IMG/VR virus record: IMGVR_UViG_2872180393_000002
Length of the DNA stretch: 17,175 nucleotides
Direction: 5' to 3' (one strand)
From: a virus
Taxonomy: Duplodnaviria > Heunggongvirae > Uroviricota > Caudoviricetes
The notes under the pieces are model-generated. The model was not told the DNA's origin. It saw only the letters and a list, made by a program, of their open reading frames with translations, and made no database searches. Below are positions 1 through 17,175 of this stretch, piece by piece (position 1 is the stretch's first letter; each line of letters begins with the position of its first letter). Made by a program: the position numbers and the translations under genes.

Positions 1-300
1 TTACCGCCGTAAGTGCTCCGGCTTCCTCCACTGGTAAGTATTTTTCGCGCTCTCCCTCCGTTGTTGAGAACGGCGACGATATGCCAGCAACTCAAGGACT
101 CTTGTTCGTATGTTGCGCATATCCACGCCGTTAAGCTCAATACCGTCACGGCGCATCACCTCAGCCACCACACGCGCGTAATTTTCAGCGGTGACGCTGT
201 CCGGCTGCGTGGCCACCTGTTTGCCTGTTGCCTGACAGATTCCGGTAATACGGCGGATTACTTTCAGTAGTTCGGCGTCGGTCATGGTTATGGTTTCCAT
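1..300 (-). CDS. hypothetical 99-aa protein with basic C-terminus, last gene of the element visible in the window
   Basis: Complete ORF with ATG at 298-300 and TAA at 1-3. It lies downstream of the capsid module terminator. No family recognised by eye. Confidence 0.45.
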   Translation of the reverse strand: METITMTDAELLKVIRRITGICQATGKQVATQPDSVTAENYARVVAEVMRRDGIELNGVDMRNIRTRVLELLAYRRRSQQRRESAKNTYQWRKPEHLRR

Positions 301-463
301 AGTGATGGGGGAACAATTTCTGTAATCTGCGAAGCTGGCGATCGGTCAGACTCAAATGCCTGGCAACTTCAGTCTGAGTAGCCACTGTTCACCTCGCCCA
401 AAAATCTCTCCTCATGCGTTTTAAACATGCATCTTGCGAACAACTTTATGAAACGCGGCATAT

Positions 464-671: not shown

Positions 672-1085
672 TCAGATGGTTTTCAGTATGCGATCGATTT
701 CGCCGTCATCACCCTGATATCTGCCATCGTATGCCATGCCAGGGCTTACGGCCTGCGGGCTGTGCATGTCCATAAAGTTTTCAAAGGCTGCGGTAAGCTC
801 CGGCGCAACCTTCGGGCGTTCCTGCTCTATGGTCATGTTCAGGATTTCCCGGGCATTATCGACGCTAATACATGGCACGTTTGCCATTGCACGTAACAGC
901 GGCTGATAGTCGTCAGATTCATGAAGCGCCATAATCGCATCAGTGCGCGGCTTGTCCTGCTCTTCCAGTTTGTTAAGTTGATATATAGCCTCGTAGGTTG
1001 ATAAACCTCTGTCCGCCATTGCCCGCGCTTCGGCTTTAAATTTACTCGCCAGCGGTAGCGCCATGATAGCTTCATTGATTGCCAT
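672..1085 (-). CDS. hypothetical acidic 137-aa capsid-module protein (possible scaffold or size-determination role; function unknown)
   Basis: Start MAINEAIMA at 1083-1085 with an AGGGGA Shine-Dalgarno 5 nt upstream. The longer 158-aa ORF in the track would overlap the upstream gene. Co-operonic with the E-like and D-like genes. Confidence 0.55.
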   Translation of the reverse strand: MAINEAIMALPLASKFKAEARAMADRGLSTYEAIYQLNKLEEQDKPRTDAIMALHESDDYQPLLRAMANVPCISVDNAREILNMTIEQERPKVAPELTAAFENFMDMHSPQAVSPGMAYDGRYQGDDGEIDRILKTI

Positions 1086-1096
1086 CGTTCCCCTGC

Positions 1097-1387
1097 TTAT
1101 CGCACCAGTGGCTGAACGGATACGCCAGAACCCGCAAAAGCGGCGCATTTTTTCGCGTCGGTGTCGACGCTCTCGGGCCAGTTAACGGCGGCGATATTAA
1201 ATATCCCCGTCTTGTAACACTGTGCTGATTTCTGCTTTGACGTGTCCACGGGGTACGCCGTCAGATAAACAGCCTTGCCAGATTCCTGACCATCCCACGC
1301 CTTAAACTCGCCATTGTCCGCCAGCATCAGCGGAAAAATGTACCAGCGTCGTGGCAACCTGCTGTGTGCCTGCATATAACTCAACAT
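1097..1387 (-). CDS. head decoration protein, lambda gpD-like; apparently frameshifted at an A5 run (ancestral start probably 1400)
   Basis: Motifs PLML..AWDG..KTG..WPE..AFAG match lambda gpD. The ATG at 1398-1400 has a GGGAG RBS but is in another frame, which joins the D frame if one A is removed from the run at 1334-1338. Confidence 0.7.
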   Translation of the reverse strand: MLSYMQAHSRLPRRWYIFPLMLADNGEFKAWDGQESGKAVYLTAYPVDTSKQKSAQCYKTGIFNIAAVNWPESVDTDAKKCAAFAGSGVSVQPLVR

Positions 1388-1411: not shown

Positions 1412-2467
1412 TTAACCAATTTTCACAGTAACAAATTTGCGGATATCTGCCGGAACCGGCTGCGGTGCGCTGTGCGTCTGCACGTACTCAATCGCCGGAT
1501 CGCCGCTCTCAATCCAGTTTTTCGGGTAGTACATGTTTTGCGTTGCGCCCGTTCTTACCGCTTCCGGATCCATAATCGCGCCATAGGCCACCAGACCTTT
1601 ATTGCTGGTGTTGCCCAGGACAAGCAAATCAGGCTCAAGGAAATATTTTTCGGTGCCGTCGCTGTCGGTGTATTTGCCGGAATAGACGATAAGGGCCAGA
1701 TCACCCAGATAGCCTTTAAAGCTCACCACTTCGCCCAGGTTTTTACACGCCAGCTCTGCGGCGGATTCTGAACCACGGGAAAGATCGTACAGCTCGCGGA
1801 ATTTTTTAAAGCTACGTAAGGTGCGCCATACGTCAGCGCCCATAATCATGACGTTGGCGGGGCAGCTGGCCTGTTCGGCGTATAGCTCGATGTCATCTGT
1901 CGGATCATGCGTCTCTTTATTCTGCTCAGACCATTTTTTTCCTGGCCCCTGATGGACAATGCAGTTTGCCGGCATATTCCAGTCGATTTCATAGCGTTCT
2001 ATGCCTTCGCCTTCAATGATGTTTTTTCCGGTCGTGACCGCATTCACTGCCAGCCATTCCACACGCGCTTTAATGGCGTTTATCTGGCGGCGCATGTTGC
2101 CAGTAATGAGGCGCATACGTCGCCAGGTGGGGTCGTTAAGCAGTGCCGGATCTTCTCCAGCCATGCGCATGATGGTTTTTGATGGATCGATTTCGTGTTT
2201 GGGTTTCATGTAGCCAGGGCGGGTAGTGCTTGTTTCGTACCCTTTATCACGCTGAACCTGGCTACCCACCACAGGCGAACAAAACGCCGACATGGTGACT
2301 TCTTCAATGTCCAGGGTATCCAGCATGACATCTTGTGTGTTGAAGGTTGCTACTTTCGGGAAAAACAGCGTGGTAAACAGCGGACTGAATTTAAATTCCG
2401 GGATATCCCCGCGATTCAGGTACGCGAAAAGCTGGTTAGTGTTAAGTGCCGTTGCTTTGTCTGCCAT
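1412..2467 (-). CDS. major capsid protein, lambda gpE family (HK97 fold), 351 aa
   Basis: Alignable by eye with lambda gpE along its length (KFKFSPLF, PGYMKPKHE, DPTDDIE, VSFKGYLGDLALIVYSG, VLGNT, YPKNW..TGDPA). Confidence 0.9.
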   Translation of the reverse strand: MADKATALNTNQLFAYLNRGDIPEFKFSPLFTTLFFPKVATFNTQDVMLDTLDIEEVTMSAFCSPVVGSQVQRDKGYETSTTRPGYMKPKHEIDPSKTIMRMAGEDPALLNDPTWRRMRLITGNMRRQINAIKARVEWLAVNAVTTGKNIIEGEGIERYEIDWNMPANCIVHQGPGKKWSEQNKETHDPTDDIELYAEQASCPANVMIMGADVWRTLRSFKKFRELYDLSRGSESAAELACKNLGEVVSFKGYLGDLALIVYSGKYTDSDGTEKYFLEPDLLVLGNTSNKGLVAYGAIMDPEAVRTGATQNMYYPKNWIESGDPAIEYVQTHSAPQPVPADIRKFVTVKIG

Positions 2468-2672
2468 TATTCACCCCATGAGTCTGATTCATGCCAAGCG
2501 CCGCACGTAAATAGGCGCGTACCTGCCAGCCTGTTGACGGCTCAACCATCGCCAGCGGATCAAGTCCTGCCGCAATGCCCGCTTTTACGTTCTGCTGGTG
2601 GCGTTCCTTGAGCGCCTCCACGATATCGGGGCTTATGTAAACTGTCACCCCGCCTTTTTTCTCTTCTGTCAT
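2442..2672 (-). CDS. hypothetical 76-aa protein, first gene of the capsid operon
   Basis: ATG at 2670-2672 with an AGAGGA RBS. It overlaps the E-like start by 26 nt. No family recognised. Confidence 0.4.
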   Translation of the reverse strand: MTEEKKGGVTVYISPDIVEALKERHQQNVKAGIAAGLDPLAMVEPSTGWQVRAYLRAALGMNQTHGVNNGRQSNGT

Positions 2673-2699
2673 AGTCAGAAATTCCTCTTCGACTTAAAA

Positions 2700-2757
2700 A
2701 ATTATAACTGGATGTACATCCAGTTATAATTATAATCATAGTTGCATTTTGTGCAAT
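2700..2757 (-). promoter_or_regulatory. sigma70-like promoter (TTGCAC-16-TATAAT, minus strand) overlapped by a perfect 32-bp palindromic operator AATTATAACTGGATGTACATCCAGTTATAATT (2700-2731)
   Basis: Perfect dyad centred at 2715/2716. The -10 lies at 2729-2734 and the -35 at 2751-2756 on the minus strand, so the palindrome covers the -10 and the predicted transcription start of the capsid operon. Confidence 0.5.
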
Positions 2758-2944
2758 AGAATTGAGTTGCATTGCAAATTATGAAATGATTTACGGCAAC
2801 AGTAGTCACCATGCTGTTAACCTCGTAAGCAAAAGCCCGATAAGCTTCCTCCTGTACTTATCGTAAGCGCCCCATCAGCGACGTCTTGTGAAAATTGTCC
2901 TGTCTGGCAACAATCGCGCCCATCTATATTGATGGACACGAACG

Positions 2945-3619
2945 ATGAATTCCCAGACAACAAAAGATATTCCCTGCTTCCGTTCTTATTTGCCTGATGC
3001 CCTGCGTTTAAGATTTGAAGATAAACTGACCATCCGGGCCATCGCTCAGCGTCTGGGTCTCAGTCATTCCACAATACATACGCTTTTTCAGCGATTTCTT
3101 GCATCCGGTATCGCATGGCCATTGCCCGATTCAGTTTCATTCGCTCAACTTGACGCCATCCTTTATGCCAACAGAAAGAAGGAATTAACAGAGCCTCAAA
3201 TCAGAGAAGGCTCATGGCGAAAAGAACGGCGAACCAGCTATAGCCGTGAATTTAAGGTCCGTCTGGCTAAGCAGGCGTTACAGCCTGGGGCTGTTGTTGC
3301 CCGGATCGCCAGAGAACACGATATCAATGATAACCTGCTGTTTAAATGGAAAAGCCAGTACGAGGACGGCTTACTGAGCGATGATGACATACAGGAATGC
3401 ATGCCTGTCCCGGTGGCACTGACTGATACGCCGGAGCCGACCAGACCAGTTACAAATCCCTTCTGGCGTAACAAGCATGATGAGCGCCCTGAGGGGGCTC
3501 CCGGAAACGTCCCACGGTGCGAGCTGCATCTTAAATCAGGTGTGGTAAAACTGTTTGACCCTCTCACTCCGGAACTGTTACGGGCGCTAATCCGCGAAAT
3601 GAAAGGGGGTATCCGATGA
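2945..3619 (+). CDS. IS66-family TnpA (helix-turn-helix accessory protein), 224 aa
   Basis: First ORF of the IS66 unit, with an IS66 orf1-like HTH region (SYSREFKVRLAKQAL..ARIAREHDINDNLLFKWKSQY). ATGA overlap with tnpB. Confidence 0.8.
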   Translation: MNSQTTKDIPCFRSYLPDALRLRFEDKLTIRAIAQRLGLSHSTIHTLFQRFLASGIAWPLPDSVSFAQLDAILYANRKKELTEPQIREGSWRKERRTSYSREFKVRLAKQALQPGAVVARIAREHDINDNLLFKWKSQYEDGLLSDDDIQECMPVPVALTDTPEPTRPVTNPFWRNKHDERPEGAPGNVPRCELHLKSGVVKLFDPLTPELLRALIREMKGGIR

Positions 3620-3963
3620 TAACGCTGCCGACCGGTACCAAAATCTGGATCATCGCTGGCATCACAGATATGCGTTGTGGCTTCAATGGCCTGGCTTCGA
3701 AGGTGCAGAACACGCTGAAAGATGACCCGTTCTCCGGGCATATCTTCGTCTTCCGGGGCCGCAGTGGCAAAATGGTGAAAATACTGTGGGCCGATCGTGA
3801 CGGGTTATGCCTGTTCGCCAAACGCCTGGAACGGGGCCGCTTCGTCTGGCCGGTGACCCGGGAAGGGAAAGTGCACCTGACGCCAGCTCAGTTATCCATG
3901 CTACTGGAGGGGATCGCGTGGCAACATCCAAAACGGACAGAACGGCCTGGCATCCGGATATAA
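3616..3963 (+). CDS. IS66-family TnpB (orf2), 115 aa
   Basis: Characteristic IS66 orf2 sequence (MRCGFNGLA..FVFRGRSGKMVKILWADRDGLCLFAKRLE). Confidence 0.9.
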   Translation: MITLPTGTKIWIIAGITDMRCGFNGLASKVQNTLKDDPFSGHIFVFRGRSGKMVKILWADRDGLCLFAKRLERGRFVWPVTREGKVHLTPAQLSMLLEGIAWQHPKRTERPGIRI

Positions 3964-3982
3964 CCCGTGATAAAACAAGGGA

Positions 3983-5584
3983 ATGAACAATGAACTCCCC
4001 GATGATATTGAGCTGCTTAAAGCCATGTTGCGTAAGCAACAGAGTCGGCTTCGACAGTATGCCTGTCAGGTCGCGGGCTATGAGCAGGAAATTGAACGGC
4101 TGAAAGCGCAACTCGACAGGTTGCGTCGTATGTTGTTCGGCCAGAGTTCAGAGAAAAAGCGTCATAAGCTTGAAAATCAGATCCGACAGGCAGAAAAACG
4201 ACTGTCGGAACTGGAAAACCGGCTGAACACAGCCAGAAATCTTCTGGAAGATGCATCGTCAGTCACAGATTCACCTGACACCAGTCCCCCGTCAGAAAAC
4301 CCGATCGCCAGTAAGCCTGAATCCCCGGGACGAAAATCTTCACGAAAACCGCTGCCGGCAGAACTTCCCCGGGAGACACATCGCCTTCTGCCTGCTGAAA
4401 CCAGTTGCCCGGCCTGTGGAGGTGTTCTGAAAGAAATGGGGGAAACAATCTCAGAGCAACTGGATATCATTAATACCGCCTTTAAAGTTATCGAAACCAT
4501 ACGTCCCAAACTGGCCTGTAGCCGGTGTGATGTCATCGTTCAGGCACCACTTCCCCCTAAACCGATCGAACGCGGTTATGCCAGTGCAGAGTTACTTGCA
4601 CGGATCCTGGTCAGCAAATATATGGAACATATCCCTTTATATCGCCAGTCAGAAATATACGCGCGACAGGGCGTGGAGCTGAGCCGTAATACCATGGTGC
4701 GCTGGGTATCAGAAATGGCAGACAAACTCCGTCCTCTGTATATAGCGCTGAATGACTATGTTCTGGAGGCAGGAAAGGTGCACGCAGATGACACTCCGGT
4801 GAAAGTACTGGCCCCGGGGAACGGAAAGACGAAAACGGGTCGTCTGTGGGTATACGTCAGGGATGATCGTAATGCGGGTTCATCCCTGCCGGCAGCCGTC
4901 TGGTTCGCGTATTCGGCAGATCGCAAAGGAGAACATCCGCAGCGCCACCTGGCAAAGTATCAGGGCGTACTGCAGGCTGATGCCTATGCAGGTTATAACG
5001 TACTGTACGAAACGGGCCGGGTGAAGGAAGCCGGGTGCCAGGCCCACGCCCGCCGAAAAATCCATGACGAGGATGTGCGCCGTCCGACAGAAATGACTCA
5101 GGAAGCGCTCAGACGGATAGCAGAGTTATACGACATAGAAGCGGAGATACGTGGCAGTCCGGCAGAGGAACGGCTTGCAGTCAGAAAAGCCAGAAGCGTC
5201 CAGTTGATGCAGTCGTTGTACGACTGGATACAGTTGCAGAGGAAAACGCTGTCGAAACATGCGGAGATGGCGAAGGCGTTCGACTATATCCTGAATCACT
5301 GGAATGCGCTGAACGAGTTCTGTCGTGACGGCTGGGTGGAAATAGACAACAACATCGGTGAAAACGCGTTACGATCGGTGGCGGTTGGAAGAAAAAATTA
5401 TCTCTTTTTCGGCTCAGACAAGGGAGGAGAAAGTGCGGCGATCATCTACAGTCTGCAGGTCACCTGCAAACAGAACGAAGTGGAGCCGGAGGACTGGTTG
5501 CGCGAAGTGATCGAGAAGCTCAATGACTGGCCGTCGAACCAAGTGCATGAACTGCTGCCCTGGAACTTCTCGTCTGTAAAATAA
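3983..5584 (+). CDS. IS66-family transposase TnpC (DDE), 533 aa
   Basis: N-terminal leucine zipper, CxxC..CxxC zinc finger, and a DDE core typical of IS66 TnpC. Confidence 0.9.
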
Positions 5585-5641
5585 TCCTTACGCTACGTAC
5601 TTCTCGGGGCGCTTACTACTTATCGGGCTTTTTTTGGGTAC

Positions 5642-5663
5642 AAAAAGCCGGATTTTCTCCGGC
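5642..5663 (-). terminator. rho-independent terminator after ssb; adjacent to a second, 14-bp-stem bidirectional terminator (2831-2844 pairing with 5619-5632) that is split by the IS66 insertion
   Basis: Hairpin GCCGGA-ttttc-TCCGGC at 5647-5663 with A5 at 5642-5646, which is a U-run on the minus strand. With the IS removed, AAAAGCCCGATAAG and CTTATCGGGCTTTT form a perfect 14-bp stem around a 12-nt loop. Confidence 0.5.
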
Positions 5664-5671
5664 CTGTGCGT

Positions 5672-6054
5672 TCAGAACGGAATATCATCACCGTAGGGGT
5701 CATCGTCTCCCGCTGGTGGCTGATTACCCTGTGTGCCTGTGGTTTTGCGTCTGTTCCCGCCAGGGCGTGCCGCTCGGGCACTGATTACGCTGTCGGCAAT
5801 AACCTGATAACCCTGCCGCGTTTCCCCGTTCTGTCCGGTCCACTGGCTGACCTGCATCGTGCCGGATACGCTGGCAACGTCGCCTTTTTGATGTTTAGCC
5901 AGGAAGTCGGCCTGCTTACCAAATGCCATCACCGATAGCCATAACGTCGCCTGTCCGTCCTGTGCCTGGCTGCATGGCAGCGATACCGCCATACGCGCCA
6001 GCGTCATCGGTGTGCCCTTGCTGGTCTGTTTTACCTGCGGGTCGTCCACCAACC
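5672..6054 (-). pseudogene. ssb: single-stranded DNA-binding protein, C-terminal 128 codons; gene interrupted by IS600-like copy A
   Basis: OB-fold core resembling E. coli SSB (W..V..FGK.A...KG...W) and the canonical acidic tail DDDPYGDDIPF. The N-terminus of the 143-aa ORF in the track is read through from the IS end. Confidence 0.8.
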
Positions 6055-6118
6055 TGAGGTAGCCTGAGTTTAACGGACACTCCTTCCTGAAATAGAATGG
6101 CATCAGAAGGAGCTAATA

Positions 6119-6421
6119 ATGAGCAGAAAAACCCAACGTTACTCTAAAGAGTTCAAAGCCGAAGCTGTCAGAACGGTTCTTGAAAATCAACTTTCGATCA
6201 GTGAAGGCGCTTCCCGATTATCCCTTCCTGAAGGCACTTTAGGACAATGGGTTACCGCCGCCAGAAAAGGGCTCGGTACTCCTGGTTCCCGCACGGTGGC
6301 TGAACTGGAATCTGAAATTCTGCAACTGCGTAAGGCGTTAAATGAAGCTCGCCTTGAGCGAGATATATTAAAAAAAGCAACAGCGTATTTTGCACAGGAG
6401 TCGCTGAAAAATACGCGTTAA
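6119..6421 (+). CDS. IS3-family OrfA (HTH), IS600-like
   Basis: 100-aa ORF with an IS3-type HTH and leucine zipper, identical in all three copies. Confidence 0.9.
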   Translation: MSRKTQRYSKEFKAEAVRTVLENQLSISEGASRLSLPEGTLGQWVTAARKGLGTPGSRTVAELESEILQLRKALNEARLERDILKKATAYFAQESLKNTR

Positions 6422-6456
6422 TCGAACAATGGCGACAACAATTTCCCATTGAAGCG

Positions 6457-7275
6457 ATGTGTCAGGTATTTGGTGTATCCAGGAGCGGTTATTACAACTG
6501 GGTACAGCATGAACCCTCAGACAGAAAACAAAGTGATGAGCGGCTAAAACTGGAGATTAAGGTGGCACATATCCGCACTCGCGAAACATATGGAACCCGG
6601 CGGCTCCAGACGGAGCTGGCAGAGAATGGCATCATCGTTGGTCGTGACCGACTGGCACGTCTTCGTAAGGAGCTAAGGCTACGCTGTAAGCAGAAACGCA
6701 AGTTCAGAGCGACTACGAACCCGAACCACAATCTGCCAGTTGCGCCAAATCTGCTGAACCAGACGTTCGCTCCTACAGCACCAAATCAGGTCTGGGTGGC
6801 GGACCTGACGTATGTTGCCACACAGGAGGGATGGTTGTACCTAGCTGGCATCAAAGATGTTTATACGTGCGAAATTGTCGGCTACGCCATGGGAGAGCGC
6901 ATGACAAAAGAGCTGACAGGTAAAGCCCTGTTTATGGCGCTCAGGAGCCAGCGCCCACCTGCCGGGCTAATCCACCACTCTGATCGAGGTTCACAGTACT
7001 GCGCATACGATTACCGGGTCATACAGGAGCAGTTTGGTCTGAAAACATCAATGTCGCGTAAAGGTAACTGTTACGACAACGCTCCGATGGAAAGCTTCTG
7101 GGGAACGCTGAAAAATGAGAGCCTGAGCCACTATCGTTTTAATAACCGGGATGAAGACATCTCAGTAATACGGGAATACATTGAGATTTTCTACAATCGT
7201 CAGCGTCGTCACTCTCGTCTGGGGAATATCTCCCCGGCAGCCTTCAGGGAAAAATATCATCATATGGCTGCTTAA
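6457..7275 (+). CDS. IS3-family OrfB (DDE integrase-type transposase catalytic domain); expressed as an OrfAB fusion by -1 frameshifting
   Basis: DDE / rve-type motifs (WVADLTY..., HHSDRGSQY..., NAPMESFWGTLKNE). The frame is open upstream of the first ATG back to the slippery site. Confidence 0.9.
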   Translation: MCQVFGVSRSGYYNWVQHEPSDRKQSDERLKLEIKVAHIRTRETYGTRRLQTELAENGIIVGRDRLARLRKELRLRCKQKRKFRATTNPNHNLPVAPNLLNQTFAPTAPNQVWVADLTYVATQEGWLYLAGIKDVYTCEIVGYAMGERMTKELTGKALFMALRSQRPPAGLIHHSDRGSQYCAYDYRVIQEQFGLKTSMSRKGNCYDNAPMESFWGTLKNESLSHYRFNNRDEDISVIREYIEIFYNRQRRHSRLGNISPAAFREKYHHMAA

Positions 7276-7318
7276 AAAAAGAACAAATGGTAGTGTCCGC
7301 TATTGCCAGTACACCTCA

Positions 7319-7349
7319 ACCGTCCGTAAGCTGCTATCTGTGCTGTCAT
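7319..7349 (-). pseudogene. ssb: ssb N-terminal fragment (first 10 codons, MTAQIAAYGR), separated from the rest by IS600-like copy A
   Basis: ATG at 7347-7349 with a GAGGTGG RBS. Removing the IS and one copy of the ACC duplication restores one continuous SSB frame. Confidence 0.7.
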
Positions 7350-8246: not shown

Positions 8247-8289
8247 TGAGGTGTACTGGCAATAGCGGACACTACCATTTGTTCTTTTT

Positions 8290-9108
8290 TTAAGCAGCCA
8301 TCTGATGATATTTTTCCCTGAAGGCTGCCGGGGAGATATTCCCCAGACGAGAGTGACGACGCTGACGATTGTAGAAAATCTCAATGTATTCCCGTATTAC
8401 TGAGATGGCTTCATCCCGGTTATTAAAACGATAGTGGCTCAGGCTCTCATTTTTCAGCGTTCCCCAGAAGCTTTCCATCGGAGCGTTGTCGTAACAGTTA
8501 CCTTTACGCGACATTGATGTTTTCAGACCAAACTGCTCCTGTATGACCCGGTAATCGTATGCGCAGTACTGTGAACCTCGATCAGAGTGGTGGATTAGCC
8601 CGGCAGGTGGGCGCTGGCTCCTGAGCGCCATAAACAGGGCTTTACCTGTCAGCTCTTTTGTCATGCGCTCTCCCATGGCGTAGCCGACAATTTCGCACGT
8701 ATAAACATCTTTGATGCCAGCTAGGTACAACCATCCCTCCTGTGTGGCAACATACGTCAGGTCCGCCACCCAGACCTGATTTGGTGCTGTAGGAGCGAAC
8801 GTCTGGTTCAGCAGATTTGGCGCAACTGGCAGATTGTGGTTCGGGTTCGTAGTCGCTCTGAACTTGCGTTTCTGCTTACAGCGTAGCCTTAGCTCCTTAC
8901 GAAGACGTGCCAGTCGGTCACGACCAACGATGATGCCATTCTCTGCCAGCTCCGTCTGGAGCCGCCGGGTTCCATATGTTTCGCGAGTGCGGATATGTGC
9001 CACCTTAATCTCCAGTTTTAGCCGCTCATCACTTTGTTTTCTGTCTGAGGGTTCATGCTGTACCCGGTTGTAATAACCGCTCCTGGATACACCAAATACC
9101 TGACACAT
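8290..9108 (-). CDS. IS3-family OrfB (DDE), copy B
   Basis: Matches copy A except for point differences (W to R near the N-terminus, D to A, H to Q near the C-terminus). Confidence 0.9.
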   Translation of the reverse strand: MCQVFGVSRSGYYNRVQHEPSDRKQSDERLKLEIKVAHIRTRETYGTRRLQTELAENGIIVGRDRLARLRKELRLRCKQKRKFRATTNPNHNLPVAPNLLNQTFAPTAPNQVWVADLTYVATQEGWLYLAGIKDVYTCEIVGYAMGERMTKELTGKALFMALRSQRPPAGLIHHSDRGSQYCAYDYRVIQEQFGLKTSMSRKGNCYDNAPMESFWGTLKNESLSHYRFNNRDEAISVIREYIEIFYNRQRRHSRLGNISPAAFREKYHQMAA

Positions 9109-9143
9109 CGCTTCAATGGGAAATTGTTGTCGCCATTGTTCGA

Positions 9144-9446
9144 TTAACGCGTATTTTTCAGCGACTCCTGTGCAAAATACGCTGTTGCTTTTTTTAATAT
9201 ATCTCGCTCAAGGCGAGCTTCATTTAACGCCTTACGCAGTTGCAGAATTTCAGATTCCAGTTCAGCCACCGTGCGGGAACCAGGAGTACCGAGCCCTTTT
9301 CTGGCGGCGGTAACCCATTGTCCTAAAGTGCCTTCAGGAAGGGATAATCGGGAAGCGCCTTCACTGATCGAAAGTTGATTTTCAAGAACCGTTCTGACAG
9401 CTTCGGCTTTGAACTCTTTAGAGTAACGTTGGGTTTTTCTGCTCAT
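9144..9446 (-). CDS. IS3-family OrfA, copy B
   Basis: Identical to OrfA of copy A. Confidence 0.9.
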   Translation of the reverse strand: MSRKTQRYSKEFKAEAVRTVLENQLSISEGASRLSLPEGTLGQWVTAARKGLGTPGSRTVAELESEILQLRKALNEARLERDILKKATAYFAQESLKNTR

Positions 9447-9507
9447 TATTAGCTCCTTCTGATGCCATTCTATTTCAGGAAGGAGTGTCCGTTAAACTCA
9501 GGCTACC

Positions 9508-10923
9508 TCATAAAGCCCGTGCCTTCTCAGGGTCGGTAAAGTTCGCCAGCAATCGGCGGATAATAACGGGGATTTCAGCCGCAATCTTTTCCGGTAGCTC
9601 CCTGTCTTTTTCGGCCTCACTGACGATATTGTCGAAACGGAAAATCACGCGACGACGTGCCACACCTCCGGCCCGTTCGGTGAATATCATCGGGTTGTTG
9701 TCGGTCGCCAGCACCACCGCCCTGATTACCGCCGTGAAACGCTTTTCATATTTCGGGTTAATTTCCACGGGGTCGCCGCCCGTGATTTTCTTGATGCCCG
9801 TTCCTTCGCCTGTATATTTCGGCTGGTCAGCCAGGACGATAAGACGACTCCCGACAACCTGCGCACGTCCACCAGCATCATCAAGCGATGTCATTTCAGC
9901 GCTTACCGTGTTCTGTTTCCCTGCCAGAAGGCTGGCTATGTGTGTGAATGTACTTTTACCGCTCCCGCCGTCTCCGGTGGCCTCAATAAACATCTGCCAG
10001 TCGTACCGGTTCGCCATAATCATGTAAAGCGCGGCACATATGCGCATCATCTTGCGCGGGTCTTTTCCGGCTGCGTGATCAAGCCATTTATGAAAGTTTG
10101 GCGCGTTGTCGCGGATATTCTCCCCTGGTGCTGGTGGCGTGTACTCAATGCCGTTGTGCGTGGTGATCCAGTTCTCCGGCGTGTGCGGGGAAAATTCCCC
10201 CGTTTTCAGGTTAAGCACACCATTAGTGAACGGTAGCAAATCACTGGACGGCTCGCCCATCGGGTCAGCAATAACTTTTAACGCTTCAACGGCGTTATTA
10301 ATTGCCCGCTTGCTGAATGTGGCCCCGTGTTCTGAATAAACCGCCACCATTTCGCGGCTCAGTTCCATTGTGCTGACCGGACACCATATCCCGCCGCGCC
10401 ATACGTGAACGATTTCACTTTCCGGATGCACACAAACGCCATCAAATCGACCAGCAAGCATCTGTGCGCGCTCACTGTCTGCCATCTGCGAAAGTTGCGC
10501 CTTTTGCTTTACCGGAAGCTCAATGACCAGACCATCAGAAAGATTCTGGCGTTCACGGGCCAGATATTCGCGCCAGTTCTGCACCTCCTGGCCGTGCATA
10601 CCCTCAAGATAAAAATTTGCATCCTGTACACCTGCCGCCGCCAGCTTCTGACCAATCGCCTTGATCATTACAGGCTCAAGATGTCCGGCTCTGTATATGC
10701 GTGCTGATTTTCTGCCATCCGGCACAATTTGCAGATTATCCAGTTCGGATAGCTGCTGCTCTCCAAGCCACACAGGAGGCTCATTATCTCCGGCTGTACG
10801 CGCGTCATGTTCCTGCCACTGTTTCGCGTGTGCCCAGGCATCACTACCCGCAAAGATAATTACCTCTGTGTCTTTGTGTTTTATTCCGCGTGGCTGTTTT
10901 TTTACGTTCGGTGCCAGTTTCAT
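9508..10923 (-). pseudogene. replication protein: N-terminal primase-associated region, D5_N-like region and SF3 (P4-alpha / D5-type) helicase with Walker A GDGGSGKST; truncated, with its stop codon supplied by the IS end
   Basis: Walker A and downstream SF3 motifs. The stop TGA is the complement of the terminal TCA of the IS at 9508-9510. Confidence 0.8.
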
Positions 10924-11691: not shown

Positions 11692-12915
11692 ATGACCGAA
11701 TCCAGCGATTACGAATCCGTCCAGGTCTTTATCGGCGTTGATGTCGGTAAAGATACGCATCACGCTGTTGCCATTAATCGTTCAGGTAAACGCCTGTTCG
11801 ATAAAGCATTACCCAACGACGAAAACAAACTCAGGTCGCTAATATCTGACCTGAAACAACATGGTCAGATACTTCTGGTTGTTGATCAGCCAGCTACCAT
11901 CGGTGCGTTACCTGTCGCCGTTGCCCGCTCAGAAGGAGTCCTTGTCGGATACCTCCCTGGACTGGCCATGCGCCGCATAGCCGACTTACACGCCGGTGAA
12001 GCTAAAACTGATGCTCGTGACGCTGCCATCATTGCCGAAGCTGCCCGTACCCTGCCTCACGCGCTACGCACGCTGAAACTGGCTGACGAGCAAATCGCCG
12101 AACTCTCCATGCTCTGCGGCTTCGATGATGATCTTGCCGCACAGACAACGCAGGCCAGCAACCGTATCCGCGGCCTTCTGACCCAGATACATCCGGCACT
12201 GGAGCGCGTTCTCGGTCCGAGACTTGAGCACCCGGCGGTACTCGATCTTCTCCAGCGATATCCCTCACCAGAAAAACTCGCTTCGCTGGGTGAGAAGAAG
12301 CTGGCAGCCCAGCTCTGCAAACTTGCGCCTCGTCTGGGTAAACGCCTTGCAGCAGACATAGCTCAGGCACTGGCCGAACAAACCGTCGTCGTTCCCGGCA
12401 CGAATGCCGCTGCCGTAGTACTGCCACGTCTGGCACTCCAGCTCATCACGCTGCGTAAGCAAAGAGACGAGGTGGCGCTTGAGGTAGAACAGCGAGTTCT
12501 TGCTCACCCTCTTTACCCGGTCCTGACCAGTATGCCCGGAGTCGGTGTCAGGACCGCAGCCAGACTCCTCACCGAGGTCGCCTGCCGCGCCTTCGCCTCT
12601 GCCGCACATCTCGCTGCTTATGCTGGCCTTGCGCCGGTAACTCGGCGATCCGGCTCGTCAATACGCGGTGAGCATCCCTCGCGACGGGGTAATAAAGCTC
12701 TCAAACGGGCGTTGTTCCTGTCGGCCTTCGCCGCGCTCAGGGATCCGCTCTCCAGGGCTTACTACACCCGCAAAATGAGTCAGGGAAAACGACACAATCA
12801 GGCGCTTATCGCCCTGGCGAATACGGGCCGCGAATACAGCAACACAACCGGACGGGCAATGGTTACGCGCTTCGCGTTCAGTCCAGGCGGTGACGTGGAT
12901 GATTTGGGACTCTGA
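11692..12915 (+). CDS. IS110-family recombinase/transposase (N-terminal DEDD RuvC-like domain, C-terminal Tnp domain), 407 aa
   Basis: N-terminal IGVDVGKDTHH motif, helix-hairpin-helix MPGVGVRTAARLL, and C-terminal RRSGSSIRGEH..ALKRALFLSAF serine motif. AGGGAG RBS. Confidence 0.9.
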   Translation: MTESSDYESVQVFIGVDVGKDTHHAVAINRSGKRLFDKALPNDENKLRSLISDLKQHGQILLVVDQPATIGALPVAVARSEGVLVGYLPGLAMRRIADLHAGEAKTDARDAAIIAEAARTLPHALRTLKLADEQIAELSMLCGFDDDLAAQTTQASNRIRGLLTQIHPALERVLGPRLEHPAVLDLLQRYPSPEKLASLGEKKLAAQLCKLAPRLGKRLAADIAQALAEQTVVVPGTNAAAVVLPRLALQLITLRKQRDEVALEVEQRVLAHPLYPVLTSMPGVGVRTAARLLTEVACRAFASAAHLAAYAGLAPVTRRSGSSIRGEHPSRRGNKALKRALFLSAFAALRDPLSRAYYTRKMSQGKRHNQALIALANTGREYSNTTGRAMVTRFAFSPGGDVDDLGL

Positions 12916-14707: not shown

Positions 14708-14784
14708 GGCCTTGTCGTTAAATTTGATGCAATTATACGATGGTTTTACATGGTTTTCGTAGTTTTTACTGGTTTTCTGTACAG

Positions 14785-15552
14785 CTACACGGCTCGGATA
14801 CCCCTTTTACCACTGGCGAGGGTTACGCCCGTCGCCGCAGCCTCGACAAATTCGCCCCACCAGCGCATCAGCACGATGCGTTTTTCTATGTAGTTGCTCC
14901 GGTTGTATGCCCGTCTAACTTCGTTGGTGTCGACGTGGGCAAGTGCCGCCTCTATTACGTCCGGCTCGAATCCTTCCTCGTTCGCTGCTGTGCTGAATAT
15001 GGCGCGTAATCCATGAGACACCAGCACGCCAGCGAATCCCATACGCTGCAATGCTGCGTTAGCGGTCTGGCTGTTCATCGGCTGCTGTGGGTCTTTCAGA
15101 CTTGGGAAAACGTAATTGCGGTGGTGGCTGATTGGTTTCATGGCCTCCAGCACCGCCATAGCCTGACCGGAAAGCGGGATAACGTGATCCCTGCGCATCT
15201 TCATGCGTCCTGCAGGTATCGTCCATTGCTTCGCGTCCAGGTTGATTTCATCCCACCGCGTTGATGACGCTTCGGCGGGACGGGTTACGGTCAGTAACTG
15301 CCATTCAATCAGTAATCTGGTCTGCCGTTCTGTTGCCGATACTGATAAAGCCTGCATAAGCTCCGGCAGCTGTTCGGGGCGGATTGTTGGCATATGTTTT
15401 TTTACAGGTGAGGGAAACGCCTTACGCACATTCATAGCCGGATTGGCATCAATCAGCCCACTGTTGGCGGCGTAATCCATTACCTCATTAACGCGCTGTA
15501 AAACCCGCTTGAGTGTTTCCAGGTTGCCGCGCTCCTTGATGGGTGTAAGCAC
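14785..15552 (-). pseudogene. int: tyrosine integrase (P4-type), C-terminal catalytic part; gene interrupted by IS600-like copy C
   Basis: Catalytic-domain motifs HGLRAIFST (H-x-x-R) and RAYNRSNY (tyrosine nucleophile). The 5' end abuts the IS at 15552/15553. Confidence 0.85.
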
Positions 15553-15616
15553 TGAGGTAGCCTGAGTTTAACGGACACTCCTTCCTGAAATAGAATGGCA
15601 TCAGAAGGAGCTAATA

Positions 15617-15919
15617 ATGAGCAGAAAAACCCAACGTTACTCTAAAGAGTTCAAAGCCGAAGCTGTCAGAACGGTTCTTGAAAATCAACTTTCGATCAGT
15701 GAAGGCGCTTCCCGATTATCCCTTCCTGAAGGCACTTTAGGACAATGGGTTACCGCCGCCAGAAAAGGGCTCGGTACTCCTGGTTCCCGCACGGTGGCTG
15801 AACTGGAATCTGAAATTCTGCAACTGCGTAAGGCGTTAAATGAAGCTCGCCTTGAGCGAGATATATTAAAAAAAGCAACAGCGTATTTTGCACAGGAGTC
15901 GCTGAAAAATACGCGTTAA
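15617..15919 (+). CDS. IS3-family OrfA, copy C
   Basis: Identical to OrfA of copies A and B. Confidence 0.9.
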   Translation: MSRKTQRYSKEFKAEAVRTVLENQLSISEGASRLSLPEGTLGQWVTAARKGLGTPGSRTVAELESEILQLRKALNEARLERDILKKATAYFAQESLKNTR

Positions 15920-15954
15920 TCGAACAATGGCGACAACAATTTCCCATTGAAGCG

Positions 15955-16815
15955 ATGTGTCAGGTATTTGGTGTATCCAGGAGCGGTTATTACAACTGGG
16001 TACAGCATGAACCCTCAGACAGAAAACAAAGTGATGAGCGGCTAAAACTGGAGATTAAGGTGGCACATATCCGCACTCGCGAAACATATGGAACCCGGCG
16101 GCTCCAGACGGAGCTGGCAGAGAATGGCATCATCGTTGGTCGTGACCGACTGGCACGTCTTCGTAAGGAGCTAAGGCTACGCTGTAAGCAGAAACGCAAG
16201 TTCAGAGCGACTACGAACCCGAACCACAATCTGCCAGTTGCGCCAAATCTGCTGAACCAGACGTTCGCTCCTACAGCACCAAATCAGGTCTGGGTGGCGG
16301 ACCTGACGTATGTTGCCACACAGGAGGGATGGTTGTACCTAGCTGGCATCAAAGATGTTTATACGTGCGAAATTGTCGGCTACGCCATGGGAGAGCGCAT
16401 GACAAAAGAGCTGACAGGTAAAGCCCTGTTTATGGCGCTCAGGAGCCAGCGCCCACCTGCCGGGCTAATCCACCACTCTGATCGAGGTTCACAGTACTGC
16501 GCATACGATTACCGGGTCATACAGGAGCAGTTTGGTCTGAAAACATCAATGTCGCGTAAAGGTAACTGTTACGACAACGCTCCGATGGAAAGCTTCTGGG
16601 GAACGCTGAAAAATGAGAGCCTGAGCCACTATCGTTTTAATAACCGGGATGAAGCCATCTCAGTAATACGGGAATACATTGAGATTTTCTACAATCGTCA
16701 GCGTCGTCACTCTCGTCTGGGGAATATCTCCCGGCAGCCTTCAGGGAAAAATATCATCAGATGGCTGCTTAAAAAAAGAACAAATGGTAGTGTCCGCTAT
16801 TGCCAGTACACCTCA
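15955..16815 (+). pseudogene. IS3-family OrfB, copy C, frameshifted about 14 codons before the normal stop by a 1-bp deletion; the frame reads out of the IS to 17175
   Basis: CTCCCGGCAG here versus CTCCCCGGCAG in copies A and B. The DDE core lies upstream of the lesion and is intact. Confidence 0.8.
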
Positions 16816-17175
16816 CACCTCAACGAACCTTCGGGTGGTGAGGGTATCTATTGGCGTGTTGCCGATGAACGGGAATACATATTTATCCAGCGAACGCCAG
16901 ATATCTTTAATCGTGTTGGGGGCCAGATTCTGGCTGATTTTCACCTGGTACCATGCCGCCGCCACATTTTCGACTTCGGGCCTCTGTCTCTCTTTTTTGC
17001 CTCTCGTGGTCCTGCGGGTCAGTTCCGGCACGAATTAACGCCCTGTACTCGCTACGGCGTTTTCTGGCATCAGCCAGGGAAACATCTTCAAGCGATCCAA
17101 AACTCAGCAATATTCTTTTTTTGTCCGATGGTCGGTAGTAGGAAAATCTCCAGAGTTTTGATCCAGACGGTTTGA
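16816..17175 (-). pseudogene. int: tyrosine integrase N-terminal part (partial at the window edge), with an internal frameshift near 16975-17005
   Basis: Two overlapping frames carry consecutive integrase N-terminal homology: ..GSKLWRFSY..SLEDVSLADARKRR..GTDPQDHER, then ..NVAAAWYQVK..YVFPFIGNTPIDTLT. They switch near a T6 run at 16993-16998. Confidence 0.75.

What the first reader, a model, noticed from the sequence alone, without database searches (positions are those of the whole stretch)
2700..2731. Perfect 32-bp palindrome overlapping the capsid-operon promoter
AATTATAACTGGATGTACATCCAGTTATAATT is exactly self-complementary and covers the -10 box and predicted start of the capsid operon. 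This is the classic arrangement for tight repression by a dimeric regulator. The half-site CTGG-N8-CCAG is close to, but not, a LexA box, so the cognate regulator is unknown and could be helper-encoded.
Basis: seen in the sequence. Interest (0 to 1): 0.6.

Follow-up and report, generated by a model that had tools for sequence, protein, structure and literature searches.

The report
SOS (LexA) box on PICI capsid promoter
The perfect 32-bp palindrome is real, but its conserved core is an ordinary E. coli-type LexA (SOS) operator just downstream of the -10 of the capsid operon of a degraded EcCICFT073-type phage satellite, so the likely regulator is the host's LexA, not an unknown helper-phage protein.

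Summary
The palindrome at 2700-2731 is confirmed: perfect 16+16, and none of 200 shuffles matched it. It lies on the minus-strand leader of a small-ORF/gpE-capsid/gpD-decoration operon. That operon belongs to an IS-riddled EcCICFT073-type PICI, a phage satellite.

The inner 20 bp, AACTGGATGTACATCCAGTT, carries the invariant LexA core CTG-N10-CAG. It shares both half-sites (CTGGAT/ATCCAG) with the authentic ruvAB box. Its heterology index is 5.1, as good as recA and better than ruvAB or cho.

About 100 relatives were compared. The 16-bp core is fixed in the E. coli clade, while the outer arms drift. In other genera the same position holds GACTGGATAAATATCCAGAT, AACTGGATGTTTGTCCAGTT, GACTGGATGCACATACAGTT and the canonical, non-palindromic CACTGTATATAAATTCAGTT. 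So the LexA motif is what is preserved, not symmetry or hairpin potential.

Two lineages lack the box and have a weaker -10 (TAAAAT instead of TATAAT).

I found no report of this in the E. coli PICI papers searched. It is a new member of a known kind, of moderate interest, and binding is untested.

The parts
2700..2731 (.).
   Evidence: (I3). Only the window's sublineage has the perfect form.
2706..2725 (.). LexA (SOS) box 20-mer AACTGGATGTACATCCAGTT. The CTG-N10-CAG core is at 2708-2723.
   Evidence: Heterology index 5.10, the best in the window, and none as good in 30 shuffles. Chance rate in AT-rich random sequence is 5e-7 per position. The half-sites are identical to the ruvAB box verified in K-12. 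The motif-critical positions are invariant across five lineages.
2729..2734 (-). Candidate -10 hexamer TATAAT, overlapping the palindrome by 3 nt.
   Evidence: Read from the sequence. Invariant in all box-bearing relatives; it is TAAAAT in box-less lineages. No start-site data.
2751..2756 (-). Candidate -35 hexamer TTGCAC, 16-nt spacer to the -10.
   Evidence: TTGC is invariant in all lineages.
2741..2757 (-). Conserved dyad ATTGCAC-AAAA-TGCAAC (family form TTGCA-N5-TGCAAT) over the -35. Possible site for an activator or second regulator.
   Evidence: Conserved in every lineage, including those without the LexA box. Function not tested.
2772..2791 (-). Upstream conserved block AATCATTTCATAATTTGCAA.
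   Evidence: Near-invariant in 64 distinct sequences and recognisable in other genera.
2696..2701 (-). T-run (6 T) directly after the palindrome on the coding strand.
   Evidence: flagged as terminator-like. It is retained in lineages that lack the palindrome, so it does not depend on the hairpin.
2682..2689 (-). Ribosome-binding site AAGAGGAA for the first gene.
   Evidence: invariant.
2442..2672 (-). First gene of the operon: 76 aa here, 68 aa in relatives. phrog_3255, function unknown.
   Evidence: AlphaFold model: beta-hairpin plus two helices, pLDDT 72. No significant fold match.
1412..2467 (-). Major capsid protein, lambda gpE type.
   Evidence: PF03864 E = 2.8e-48 and phrog_29. Homologue of EcCICFT073 c1499 (PMC6092414).
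1097..1387 (-). Head decoration protein, lambda gpD type. The N-terminus is apparently altered here.
   Evidence: PF02924 E = 9e-15 and phrog_49.
672..1148 (-). phrog_1999 protein with similarity to the C-terminal (Nu3/scaffold-like) part of head maturation proteases.
   Evidence: phrog_53 E = 9e-10, positions 449-566 of 583.
2826..2862 (-). Remnant of the terminator that separates the replication module from the capsid promoter, truncated by the IS66-family insertion.
   Evidence: intact AAAAGCCCGATAAG...CTTATCGGGCTTTT in relatives. Homology to relatives ends at 2863.
2863..5671 (+). IS66-family element (ISSfl3/ISSfl4-like) inserted about 130 bp upstream of the -10.
   Evidence: 99.6% to Shigella flexneri ISSfl4 tnpA/tnpB. 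The PICI SSB gene resumes at 5672.

Best explanation
The functional unit is a 20-bp LexA (SOS) operator at 2706-2725, not the 32-bp palindrome as such. It lies immediately downstream of a consensus -10 (TATAAT, 2734-2729) on the minus strand and covers roughly -3 to +17 of the promoter of the capsid operon. That operon runs small ORF, gpE-type capsid, gpD-type decoration and scaffold-like protein, in an EcCICFT073-type phage-inducible chromosomal island.

In an undamaged cell a host LexA dimer would occupy the box and block open-complex formation or promoter escape. DNA damage activates RecA, LexA cleaves itself, and the satellite's capsid genes are derepressed. This is the same signal that induces lambdoid helper prophages. 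The Staphylococcus aureus islands are known to use this logic for their packaging operon I.

The extra six base pairs on each side are the tail of the -10 hexamer (AATCA/AATTA) on the left and a conserved leader motif (TGATT/TAATT) on the right. They happen to be complementary. In this sublineage a paired C>T / G>A change made the symmetry perfect.

What is shown: the sequence, the LexA-motif score, the position relative to the conserved promoter elements, and the pattern of conservation. What is inferred: the start site, LexA binding and SOS inducibility.
For: 1. Motif. The site has the invariant CTG-N10-CAG (PMC11228462). Both half-sites, CTGGAT/ATCCAG, equal those of the ruvAB box, and the N8 spacer ATGTACAT/ATGAACAT resembles recA's ATGAGCAT. 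All three reference boxes were read from K-12.

2. Score. The heterology index (HI) is 5.10 for the window and 5.83 for CFT073, against recA 5.13, cho 6.39 and ruvA 7.51 on the same matrix. It is still 7.3-7.8 when all CTGG-type sites are left out of training. The matrix reproduces published HI values with r = 0.91. The chance rate for HI <= 8.6 is 6e-6 per position.

3. Position. The box is 5 nt downstream of an invariant TATAAT and 34-53 nt from the ATG. LexA boxes of tightly LexA-dependent genes lie close to the coding sequence and overlap the start site (PMC8072944).

4. Conservation within E. coli. The core CTGGAT[G/A]WWCATCCAG is fixed in about 100 loci, while the left outer arm is the most variable stretch of the region. 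Natural CCAG>ACAG variants (L043, L048) improve the LexA score to 4.59 and weaken the hairpin.

5. Conservation across genera. The same position holds four different boxes:
- Salmonella: GACTGGATAAATATCCAGAT, HI 8.6.
- Pluralibacter: AACTGGATGTTTGTCCAGTT, HI 6.1.
- L176: GACTGGATGCACATACAGTT, HI 8.0.
- L177: CACTGTATATAAATTCAGTT, HI 4.7.
CTG, AT and CAG are invariant, while the centre and the symmetry are free.

6. Bimodality. Promoters either have a box with HI 4.5-8.6 and a TATAAT -10, or have no box (HI > 18) and a TAAAAT -10.

7. Precedent. SaPI operon I, the packaging and capsid-remodelling module, is controlled by LexA (Ubeda 2007, as stated in PMC5052747).
Against: - There is no binding, ChIP, reporter or transcript-start data for this promoter. 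I found none in the searchable literature.
- 25 of the 28 training sites in the HI matrix were recalled from memory. Only ruvA, recA and cho were verified.
- CTGG/CCAG boxes are moderate binders, and ruvAB is induced only about 2-fold (PMC11228462, Table 1).
- Within the E. coli clade the centre ATGAACAT and the flanks AATCA/TGATT are more conserved than LexA alone requires. Some paired changes occur in the outer arms (CACAA/TTGTG, CAGGA/TCCTG, TATAA/TTATA), so an additional constraint is possible.
- For the related island EcCICFT073, the master activator alpA is reported to respond to the helper phage and not to SOS (PMC6092414). SOS control would therefore cover only this module.
- Two lineages do without the box.
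Confidence: 0.78

Rival explanations
1. The palindrome is an operator for a different dimeric regulator, encoded by the island or by the helper phage, that reads the whole 30-32 bp palindrome. The resemblance to a LexA box would then be incidental.
For: In the E. coli clade symmetry extends beyond the 20-mer: AATCA...TGATT is Watson-Crick in 17-20 of 20 distinct variants. A few outer-arm changes are paired. The centre of the box is more conserved than in LexA boxes generally.
Against: - The left outer arm is part of the -10 hexamer.
- The right outer arm, TGATT, is also present in the Edwardsiella lineage, which has no box. Their conservation therefore has other explanations.
- Pair 6/27 is mismatched in 10 of 20 variants.
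- Across genera symmetry falls to 8-12 of 16 while the LexA score stays functional. L177 is a canonical asymmetric LexA box.
- The same core is not found as an operator in helper-type phages.
- No candidate regulator co-varies with the site.
Confidence: 0.08
2. The element works at the RNA level. In one version it is a leader hairpin plus U-run acting as an intrinsic terminator or attenuator that insulates the capsid operon from read-through out of the replication module, relieved by antitermination. In another it is a 5' stabilising hairpin.
For: The consensus scan calls it terminator-like: 14-pair stem followed by TTTTAAG. The hairpin folds at -15 to -20 kcal/mol, z about -4 to -6. A T-run follows in most lineages. 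Some outer-arm variants keep pairing through G-U on the sense strand.
Against: - With the conserved TTGCAC-16-TATAAT promoter, the transcript would start inside the left arm, so the full hairpin would not be transcribed.
- Hairpin stability varies from -9 to -22 kcal/mol, and the hairpin is essentially lost in L176 and L177, which keep good LexA boxes.
- The T-run persists in lineages with no hairpin, so it is not tied to the hairpin.
- A separate terminator already lies about 100 nt upstream.
- The most common outer-arm state has a G-A mismatch.
- No Rfam family matches.
Confidence: 0.07
3. The 76-aa product of the first gene is a ribbon-helix-helix-like autorepressor that binds the palindrome.
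Against: - The protein is conserved, with P15, G36, L40, G48 and R56 invariant, in lineages whose promoters lack the palindrome: STEC316-type and Edwardsiella. Protein and site therefore do not co-occur.
- Its stop overlaps the capsid start codon, which suggests translational coupling with a structural role.
Confidence: 0.04
4. The element is a functionless palindrome, for example a product of quasi-palindrome template-switch mutation or a remnant of an insertion.
For: The perfect 32-bp state is confined to one sublineage. Paired arm changes can arise by templated mutation rather than by selection (my own knowledge of quasipalindrome mutagenesis in E. coli). The island in this window is defective, with several IS insertions.
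Against: The core is fixed across about 100 loci and is more conserved than synonymous sites of the adjacent gene. The LexA-critical positions survive across genera while the neighbouring positions change.
Confidence: 0.03

Closest known systems
E. coli chromosomal LexA boxes of the CTGG/CCAG subtype (ruvAB CGCTGGATATCTATCCAGCA; cho CACTGGATAGATAACCAGCA) and the recA box (TACTGTATGAGCATACAGTA)
   Same: It has CTG-N10-CAG and half-sites identical to ruvAB's (CTGGAT/ATCCAG). Its spacer resembles recA's. Its heterology index is in the same range. It lies next to or over the -10, as in recA.
   Different: It sits on a mobile satellite and controls virion genes rather than repair genes. It is embedded in a longer palindrome. 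Binding is untested.
LexA control of SaPI operon I, the packaging and capsid-size module of Staphylococcus aureus pathogenicity islands (Ubeda et al. 2007 Mol Microbiol 65:41; summarised in PMC5052747)
   Same: In both cases a phage-inducible chromosomal island places its capsid/packaging-interference module under the host SOS repressor. The rest of the island cycle is triggered by the helper phage.
   Different: The host is Gram-negative, with the gammaproteobacterial LexA motif instead of the Firmicutes one. The operon content is unrelated (gpE/gpD-type capsid genes versus cpmAB/terS). The master switch is an activator (AlpA) rather than the Stl repressor. The resemblance would therefore be convergent, not inherited.
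LexA-repressed promoters of temperate phages and other mobile elements, e.g. GIL01 P1 with its co-factor gp7 (PMC4551915), and coliphage 186 tum and CTXphi rstA (my own knowledge)
   Same: Host LexA is used directly as the element's sensor of DNA damage.
   Different: Those sites control lysogeny switches or antirepressors. This one controls structural genes. There is no evidence here for a LexA co-factor.
EcCICFT073, the type Gram-negative PICI (PMC6092414, PMC6739421)
   Same: The gene order is the same: int, alpA, primase, SSB, (PerC), small ORF, capsid c1499, decoration c1500. The promoter region is 85.6% identical and carries the same box, AACTGGATGAACATCCAGTT.
   Different: The copy in the window is interrupted by an IS66-family element, three copies of a 1.26-kb IS and an IS110-family element. 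Its palindrome is the perfect 32-bp variant. The published work does not describe how this operon is regulated.

Membership tests
Gammaproteobacterial LexA (SOS) box | Invariant CTG-N10-CAG within a 20-bp imperfect palindrome, TACTG(TA)5CAGTA (PMC11228462) | tested here: met
   AACTGGATGTACATCCAGTT at 2706-2725. CTG and CAG are invariant in all 13 distinct orthologous 20-mers.
Gammaproteobacterial LexA (SOS) box | Heterology index (HI) within the range of functional sites (published functional sites about 1.8-13; PMC11228462, Table 1) | tested here: met
   HI is 5.10, or 7.29 with CTGG-type sites excluded from training. The matrix correlates with published values at r = 0.91. Note that 25 of the 28 training sites came from memory.
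Gammaproteobacterial LexA (SOS) box | Located in a promoter, overlapping the -35, -10 or start site, close to the regulated gene | tested here: inconclusive
   The box is 5 nt downstream of a conserved TATAAT and 34-53 nt upstream of the ATG. However, the promoter and start site are predicted, not mapped.
Gammaproteobacterial LexA (SOS) box | Across orthologous promoters, motif-critical positions are conserved while the other positions diverge | tested here: met
   Five lineages keep A2, CTG, A7, T8, T14 and CAG, while the centre and position 6/15 vary. These include an asymmetric canonical box in L177.
Gammaproteobacterial LexA (SOS) box | LexA binding in vitro or in vivo, and RecA/LexA-dependent induction by DNA damage | not testable with these tools
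   No published data were found for this promoter.
SaPI-operon-I-type arrangement (LexA-controlled packaging module of a PICI) | The element is a phage-inducible chromosomal island, and the operon is its capsid/packaging module | tested here: met
   The gene order and sequence match EcCICFT073. The capsid and decoration genes are confirmed. In relatives, Nu1/Rpp-like genes lie downstream.
SaPI-operon-I-type arrangement (LexA-controlled packaging module of a PICI) | SOS induction of the operon independent of the helper phage | not testable with these tools
   This needs a reporter or RNA measurement in a prophage-free strain.
Intrinsic (Rho-independent) terminator or leader attenuator | A stable stem-loop directly followed by a U-run, with the two conserved together | tested here: not met
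   The shape is present in the window. But the hairpin decays in L176 and L177 while the box persists, and the T-run persists where the hairpin is absent.
Operator of a ribbon-helix-helix autoregulator (first gene product) | The protein has an RHH fold | tested here: inconclusive
Operator of a ribbon-helix-helix autoregulator (first gene product) | Regulator and operator co-occur | tested here: not met
   The small protein is conserved in lineages that lack the palindrome.
Lambda-type cos site | cosN-like GGGCGGCGACCT nearby | tested here: not met
   There is no match within thousands of bases of 2700. The only hits are at chance level at 9770, 12575 and 15521.

The most novel reading that the evidence does not exclude
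The most novel reading not excluded is that the element has two functions. The inner 20 bp would be a LexA operator. The extended, unusually well-conserved palindrome of the E. coli clade (fixed centre ATGAACAT, flanks AATCA/TGATT, downstream T-run) would add a second layer. That layer could be a leader hairpin/terminator that insulates the capsid genes from read-through out of the AlpA-driven replication module. Alternatively it could be a platform for an island- or helper-encoded co-factor that modifies LexA binding, as gp7 does for phage GIL01. Together with the conserved TTGCA-N5-TGCAAT dyad over the -35, the satellite's capsid promoter would then integrate three signals: SOS, island activation and helper late functions.
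Probability: 0.1. Interest if true: 0.6.

Novelty: new member of a known kind. Interest (0 to 1): 0.4.

Why it matters
How Gram-negative PICIs time the expression of their capsid and packaging-interference genes has not been described. Published work covers only the helper-induced activator AlpA.

A LexA operator on this promoter gives a simple, directly testable answer. The satellite would listen to the host's DNA-damage signal, the same signal that wakes lambdoid helper prophages, and prime its capsid module independently of AlpA.

This would be a convergent parallel to LexA control of SaPI operon I in staphylococci. It suggests a general design principle for phage satellites.

It would also add hundreds of E. 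coli, Shigella and Salmonella genomes to those carrying an accessory SOS-regulon member; the region is present in 620 of 5,426 complete E. coli genomes. It predicts that SOS-inducing antibiotics switch on satellite capsid genes.

The natural box-plus-TATAAT versus no-box-plus-TAAAAT promoter pairs are a ready-made evolutionary experiment on how repressor control is gained or lost.

Tried and rejected
- **Genome-contig scans.** I obtained relatives instead from IMG/VR, complete E. coli genomes and contigs encoding homologues of the small protein.
- **RNA family.** The Rfam E-value scan of 2300-3000 gave only far-sub-threshold noise.
- **cos site.** No cosN-like sequence lies near the palindrome.
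- **Shared operator in helper phages.** A scan of viral contigs for CTGGATGNNCATCCAG gave 18 hits in PICI context and 61 in unrelated contexts with random centres and GC content of 0.32-0.71, which fits chance.
- **Sigma-54 promoter for the TTGCAC...TGCAA dyad.** I rejected this by eye because the spacing is 2 nt too short and the GG is missing.
- **Literature.** I found no expression, ChIP or start-site data for c1498-c1500 or their homologues.
- **Simple promoter scanner.** It did not report the TTGCAC-16-TATAAT candidate, because the -35 matches only 3 of 6 positions. That promoter rests on conservation.

Full report
**Observation.** The sequence AATTATAACTGGATGTACATCCAGTTATAATT is at 2700-2731. 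It is a perfect 16+16 palindrome with no spacer (I3). It is unique in the window even with three mismatches allowed and is absent from 200 dinucleotide-preserving shuffles.

**Context.** The genes it precedes are on the minus strand:
- a 76-aa ORF (2672..2442), whose end overlaps the next gene;
- a 351-aa lambda gpE-type major capsid protein (2467..1412; PF03864, E = 2.8e-48);
- a gpD-type head decoration protein (1387..1097; PF02924);
- a phrog_1999 protein resembling the C-terminal, scaffold-like part of head maturation proteases.

Complete E. coli genomes show the same module at the end of about 10-kb islands that carry an integrase, an AlpA-type regulator, Icd-like genes, a primase, SSB and often a PerC-like gene. 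CFT073 itself has it at 85.6% identity. This is therefore an EcCICFT073-type phage-inducible chromosomal island, whose c1499 and c1500 are the capsid and decoration homologues (PMC6092414).

The copy in the window is badly degraded:
- An IS66-family element (ISSfl3/4-like) is inserted at 2863 in the terminator that precedes the capsid promoter.
- The island's SSB gene resumes at 5672.
- Three copies of a 1,264-bp IS interrupt the primase and integrase.
- An IS110-family transposase lies at 11692-12915.

No complete E. coli genome holds the island-IS66 junction. The IS matches Shigella flexneri elements, so the source is probably a Shigella-like genome; this is an inference.

**Anatomy of the promoter, read on the minus strand.**
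- Conserved block AATCATTTCATAATTTGCAA at 2791-2772.
- Dyad ATTGCAC-AAAA-TGCAAC at 2757-2741, containing a -35-like TTGCAC at 2756-2751.
- A 16-nt spacer, then a consensus -10, TATAAT, at 2734-2729.
- The palindrome at 2731-2700.
- Six T at 2701-2696.
- Ribosome-binding site AAGAGGAA at 2689-2682 and ATG at 2672-2670.

With this promoter, transcription would start around 2722, inside the left arm. The inner 20-mer (2725-2706) would cover about -3 to +17. The simple scanner did not list this promoter, because its -35 matches only 3 of 6 positions. It did flag the palindrome plus T-run as terminator-like. So an RNA-level explanation had to be tested alongside the operator idea.

The literature gives the invariant part of the E. 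coli box as CTG-N10-CAG (PMC11228462), and this site has it.

I read three authentic boxes directly from K-12 MG1655:
- ruvA: CGCTGGATATCTATCCAGCA
- cho: CACTGGATAGATAACCAGCA
- recA: TACTGTATGAGCATACAGTA

The island's box (window AACTGGATGTACATCCAGTT; family consensus AACTGGATGAACATCCAGTT) has exactly the ruvAB half-sites CTGGAT/ATCCAG. Its spacer differs from recA's by one or two bases.

I built a Berg-von Hippel/Lewis heterology-index (HI) matrix from 28 E. coli sites. Three were verified as above and 25 were recalled from memory, which is a stated weakness. The matrix reproduces the published HI values of 25 SOS genes (PMC11228462, Table 1) with r = 0.91.

| Site | HI on this matrix |
|---|---|
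| Window box | 5.10 |
| CFT073 box | 5.83 |
| recA | 5.13 |
| cho | 6.39 |
| ruvA | 7.51 |

With every CTGG-type site removed from training, the island boxes still score 7.3-7.8, well inside the published functional range (up to about 13). The window box is the best-scoring 20-mer in the 17-kb window, and none as good appeared in 30 shuffles. In 2 Mb of random sequence with the AT-rich composition of these leaders, the rate of HI <= 8.6 is 6e-6 per position, or 2.4e-4 for a 40-nt zone.

**Comparative test within the E. coli clade.** I compared 80 IMG/VR loci plus genomic loci, giving 64 distinct sequences. The whole promoter is more conserved than synonymous sites of the adjacent gene.

The 16-bp core CTGGAT[G/A]WWCATCCAG is essentially fixed. 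The five bases between the -10 and the core are the most variable stretch: CATAA, CAGAG, CAGGA, CAGAT, CACAA, TATAA. The right outer arm changes less: TTATG, TTGTG, TTCTG, TCCTG, TTATA.

Some outer-arm changes are paired (CACAA/TTGTG, CAGGA/TCCTG, and the window's TATAA/TTATA). However, the commonest state has a G-A mismatch, and pair 6/27 is mismatched in 10 of 20 distinct variants. The perfect 32-bp form occurs only in the window and three or four loci. Variants with CCAG>ACAG (L043, L048) move towards the LexA consensus (HI 4.59) and away from symmetry.

**Comparative test across genera.** Homologues of the small ORF at 55-67% identity led to islands in Salmonella, Pluralibacter, Edwardsiella and unnamed metagenomic hosts. 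Their promoters keep the TTGC-N7-TGCAAT dyad, the -10, a T-rich leader and the ribosome-binding site. The region just after the -10 reads as follows:

| Lineage | Sequence after the -10 | HI |
|---|---|---|
| Salmonella L170 | TATAAT-CAG-GACTGGATAAATATCCAGAT | 8.6 |
| Pluralibacter L172 | AACTGGATGTTTGTCCAGTT, 14 nt further downstream | 6.1 |
| L176 | TATAAT-CAT-GACTGGATGCACATACAGTT | 8.0 |
| L177 | TATAAT-CAT-CACTGTATATAAATTCAGTT | 4.7 |

Across the 13 distinct 20-mers, A2, CTG, A7, T8, T14 and CAG never change. The centre and positions 6/15 do change. L177 is a textbook LexA box with almost no hairpin or palindromic character. L176 has one CTGG half and one canonical ACAG half.

Hairpin energies range from -9 to -22 kcal/mol and symmetry from 8 to 16 of 16, while the LexA score stays between 4.5 and 8.6. 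What is maintained is the LexA motif, not the palindrome.

**Gain or loss of the box.** Two lineages lack any LexA-like site (best HI > 16): the STEC316 type (L085, L087-L089, L091, L179, L066) and Edwardsiella (L090, L174). In them the 16-bp core is replaced by unrelated sequence, although the flanks are recognisable.

These box-less promoters all have TAAAAT instead of TATAAT as the -10. That fits a strong promoter that needs a repressor versus a weak one that depends on activation. The T-run and, in Edwardsiella, the TGATT motif persist without the box. So the right outer arm and the T-run are leader features in their own right. The left outer arm is the tail of the -10. The 32-bp perfection in the window is therefore a LexA box flanked by two independently conserved, fortuitously complementary elements, sharpened in this sublineage by a C>T / G>A pair of changes. 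Single-change intermediates exist in L081 and L058.

**Rivals.**
- *RNA terminator or attenuator.* The shape is there. But the predicted start lies inside the left arm. The hairpin is not conserved where the box is. The T-run is conserved where the hairpin is not. A separate terminator lies about 100 nt upstream. Rfam finds nothing.
- *Helper-encoded regulator with the same operator.* The core is not found in helper-type coliphage contexts.
- *cos site.* No cosN-like sequence is nearby.

**What is known.** LexA control of the packaging/capsid-remodelling operon I of staphylococcal islands is established (Ubeda 2007; PMC5052747). For Gram-negative islands the literature describes AlpA as a helper-induced, SOS-independent activator (PMC6092414, PMC11773190) and Rpp-mediated packaging redirection (PMC6739421). 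I found nothing on the regulation of the capsid operon and no mention of a LexA box. So this is a new member of a known kind: an ordinary LexA operator in a place where, by analogy with SaPIs, one might have looked for it.

**Verdict.** The arrangement as an operator over the promoter holds. The claims 'not LexA' and 'unknown or helper regulator' do not. I put about 0.78 on host LexA being the cognate regulator. The missing evidence is entirely experimental: binding, SOS and lexA dependence, and the start site. Interest is moderate at 0.4. The finding is mechanistically conventional, but it gives a testable answer to how these widespread satellites time their capsid genes, and it suggests convergence with SaPIs.

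Noticed in passing
window 14767-14786 (minus strand AGCTGTACAGAAAACCAGTA); L001 16545; L083 (CFT073) 14389; L002 15951: Every island checked has exactly one other LexA-like site (HI <= 10), and it always lies in the int-alpA intergenic region. In the window it is TACTGGTTTTCTGTACAGCT (HI 8.3). It overlaps the integrase stop codon and lies about 30 nt upstream of a TATAAT that precedes an 83-aa ORF and the AlpA-like gene. L001 has the homologous site (HI 8.45). CFT073 and L002 have a non-homologous CAGTGTATAAAAAAACAGTA / TAGTGTATAAAAAACCAGTA in which one half-site is GTG instead of CTG. PMC6092414 reports that alpA expression in EcCICFT073 is not SOS dependent.
   Followed up: partly
window 2741-2757 and 2772-2791 (minus strand): The dyad TTGCA-N5-TGCAA(T) over the -35, and an upstream TTTCAT-N4-TTGCAA block, are conserved in all lineages and genera, including those without the LexA box. 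Edwardsiella has two copies of the dyad. This looks like the binding site of a second, universal regulator of the capsid promoter, possibly an activator. Its identity is unknown.
   Followed up: partly
L085, L087-L091, L174, L179 versus all box-bearing loci: Presence of the LexA box goes with a consensus -10 (TATAAT). Its absence goes with TAAAAT. The association held in every lineage sampled.
   Followed up: yes
window 2863-5671; 6054-7321; 8247-9510; 15552-16819; 11692-12915: The window holds a whole EcCICFT073-type island broken up by insertion sequences. There is an IS66-family element (ISSfl3/4-like), three 99.7-99.8% identical copies of a 1,264-bp IS (one inverted), and an IS110-family transposase. 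The primase and integrase are interrupted, so the island is probably immobile. The IS66 element sits about 130 bp upstream of the capsid promoter and has truncated the upstream terminator, so read-through from the IS is possible.
   Followed up: partly
window 2442-2470 (end of the small ORF): The small ORF is 76 aa here, ending ...HGVNNGRQSNGT. In almost all relatives it is 68 aa, ending ...HGGE with its stop overlapping the capsid ATG. This is an apparent frameshift near the 3' end. The decoration gene also has an aberrant N-terminus compared with the 110-aa relatives.
   Followed up: no
window 185-385 and 1-300 (minus strand): Two overlapping ORFs lie downstream of the capsid module. One begins MATQTEVARHLSLTDRQLRRL, which looks helix-turn-helix-like. 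The other matches phrog_1561. Relatives encode Nu1-like (PF07471) proteins in this region. These may be a split Rpp/TerS-like packaging-redirection gene; this was not examined.
   Followed up: no
K-12 ruvA promoter (L167): The authentic ruvAB LexA box CGCTGGATATCTATCCAGCA is also followed directly by a run of seven T. So a box-plus-T-run arrangement is not peculiar to the island.
   Followed up: no
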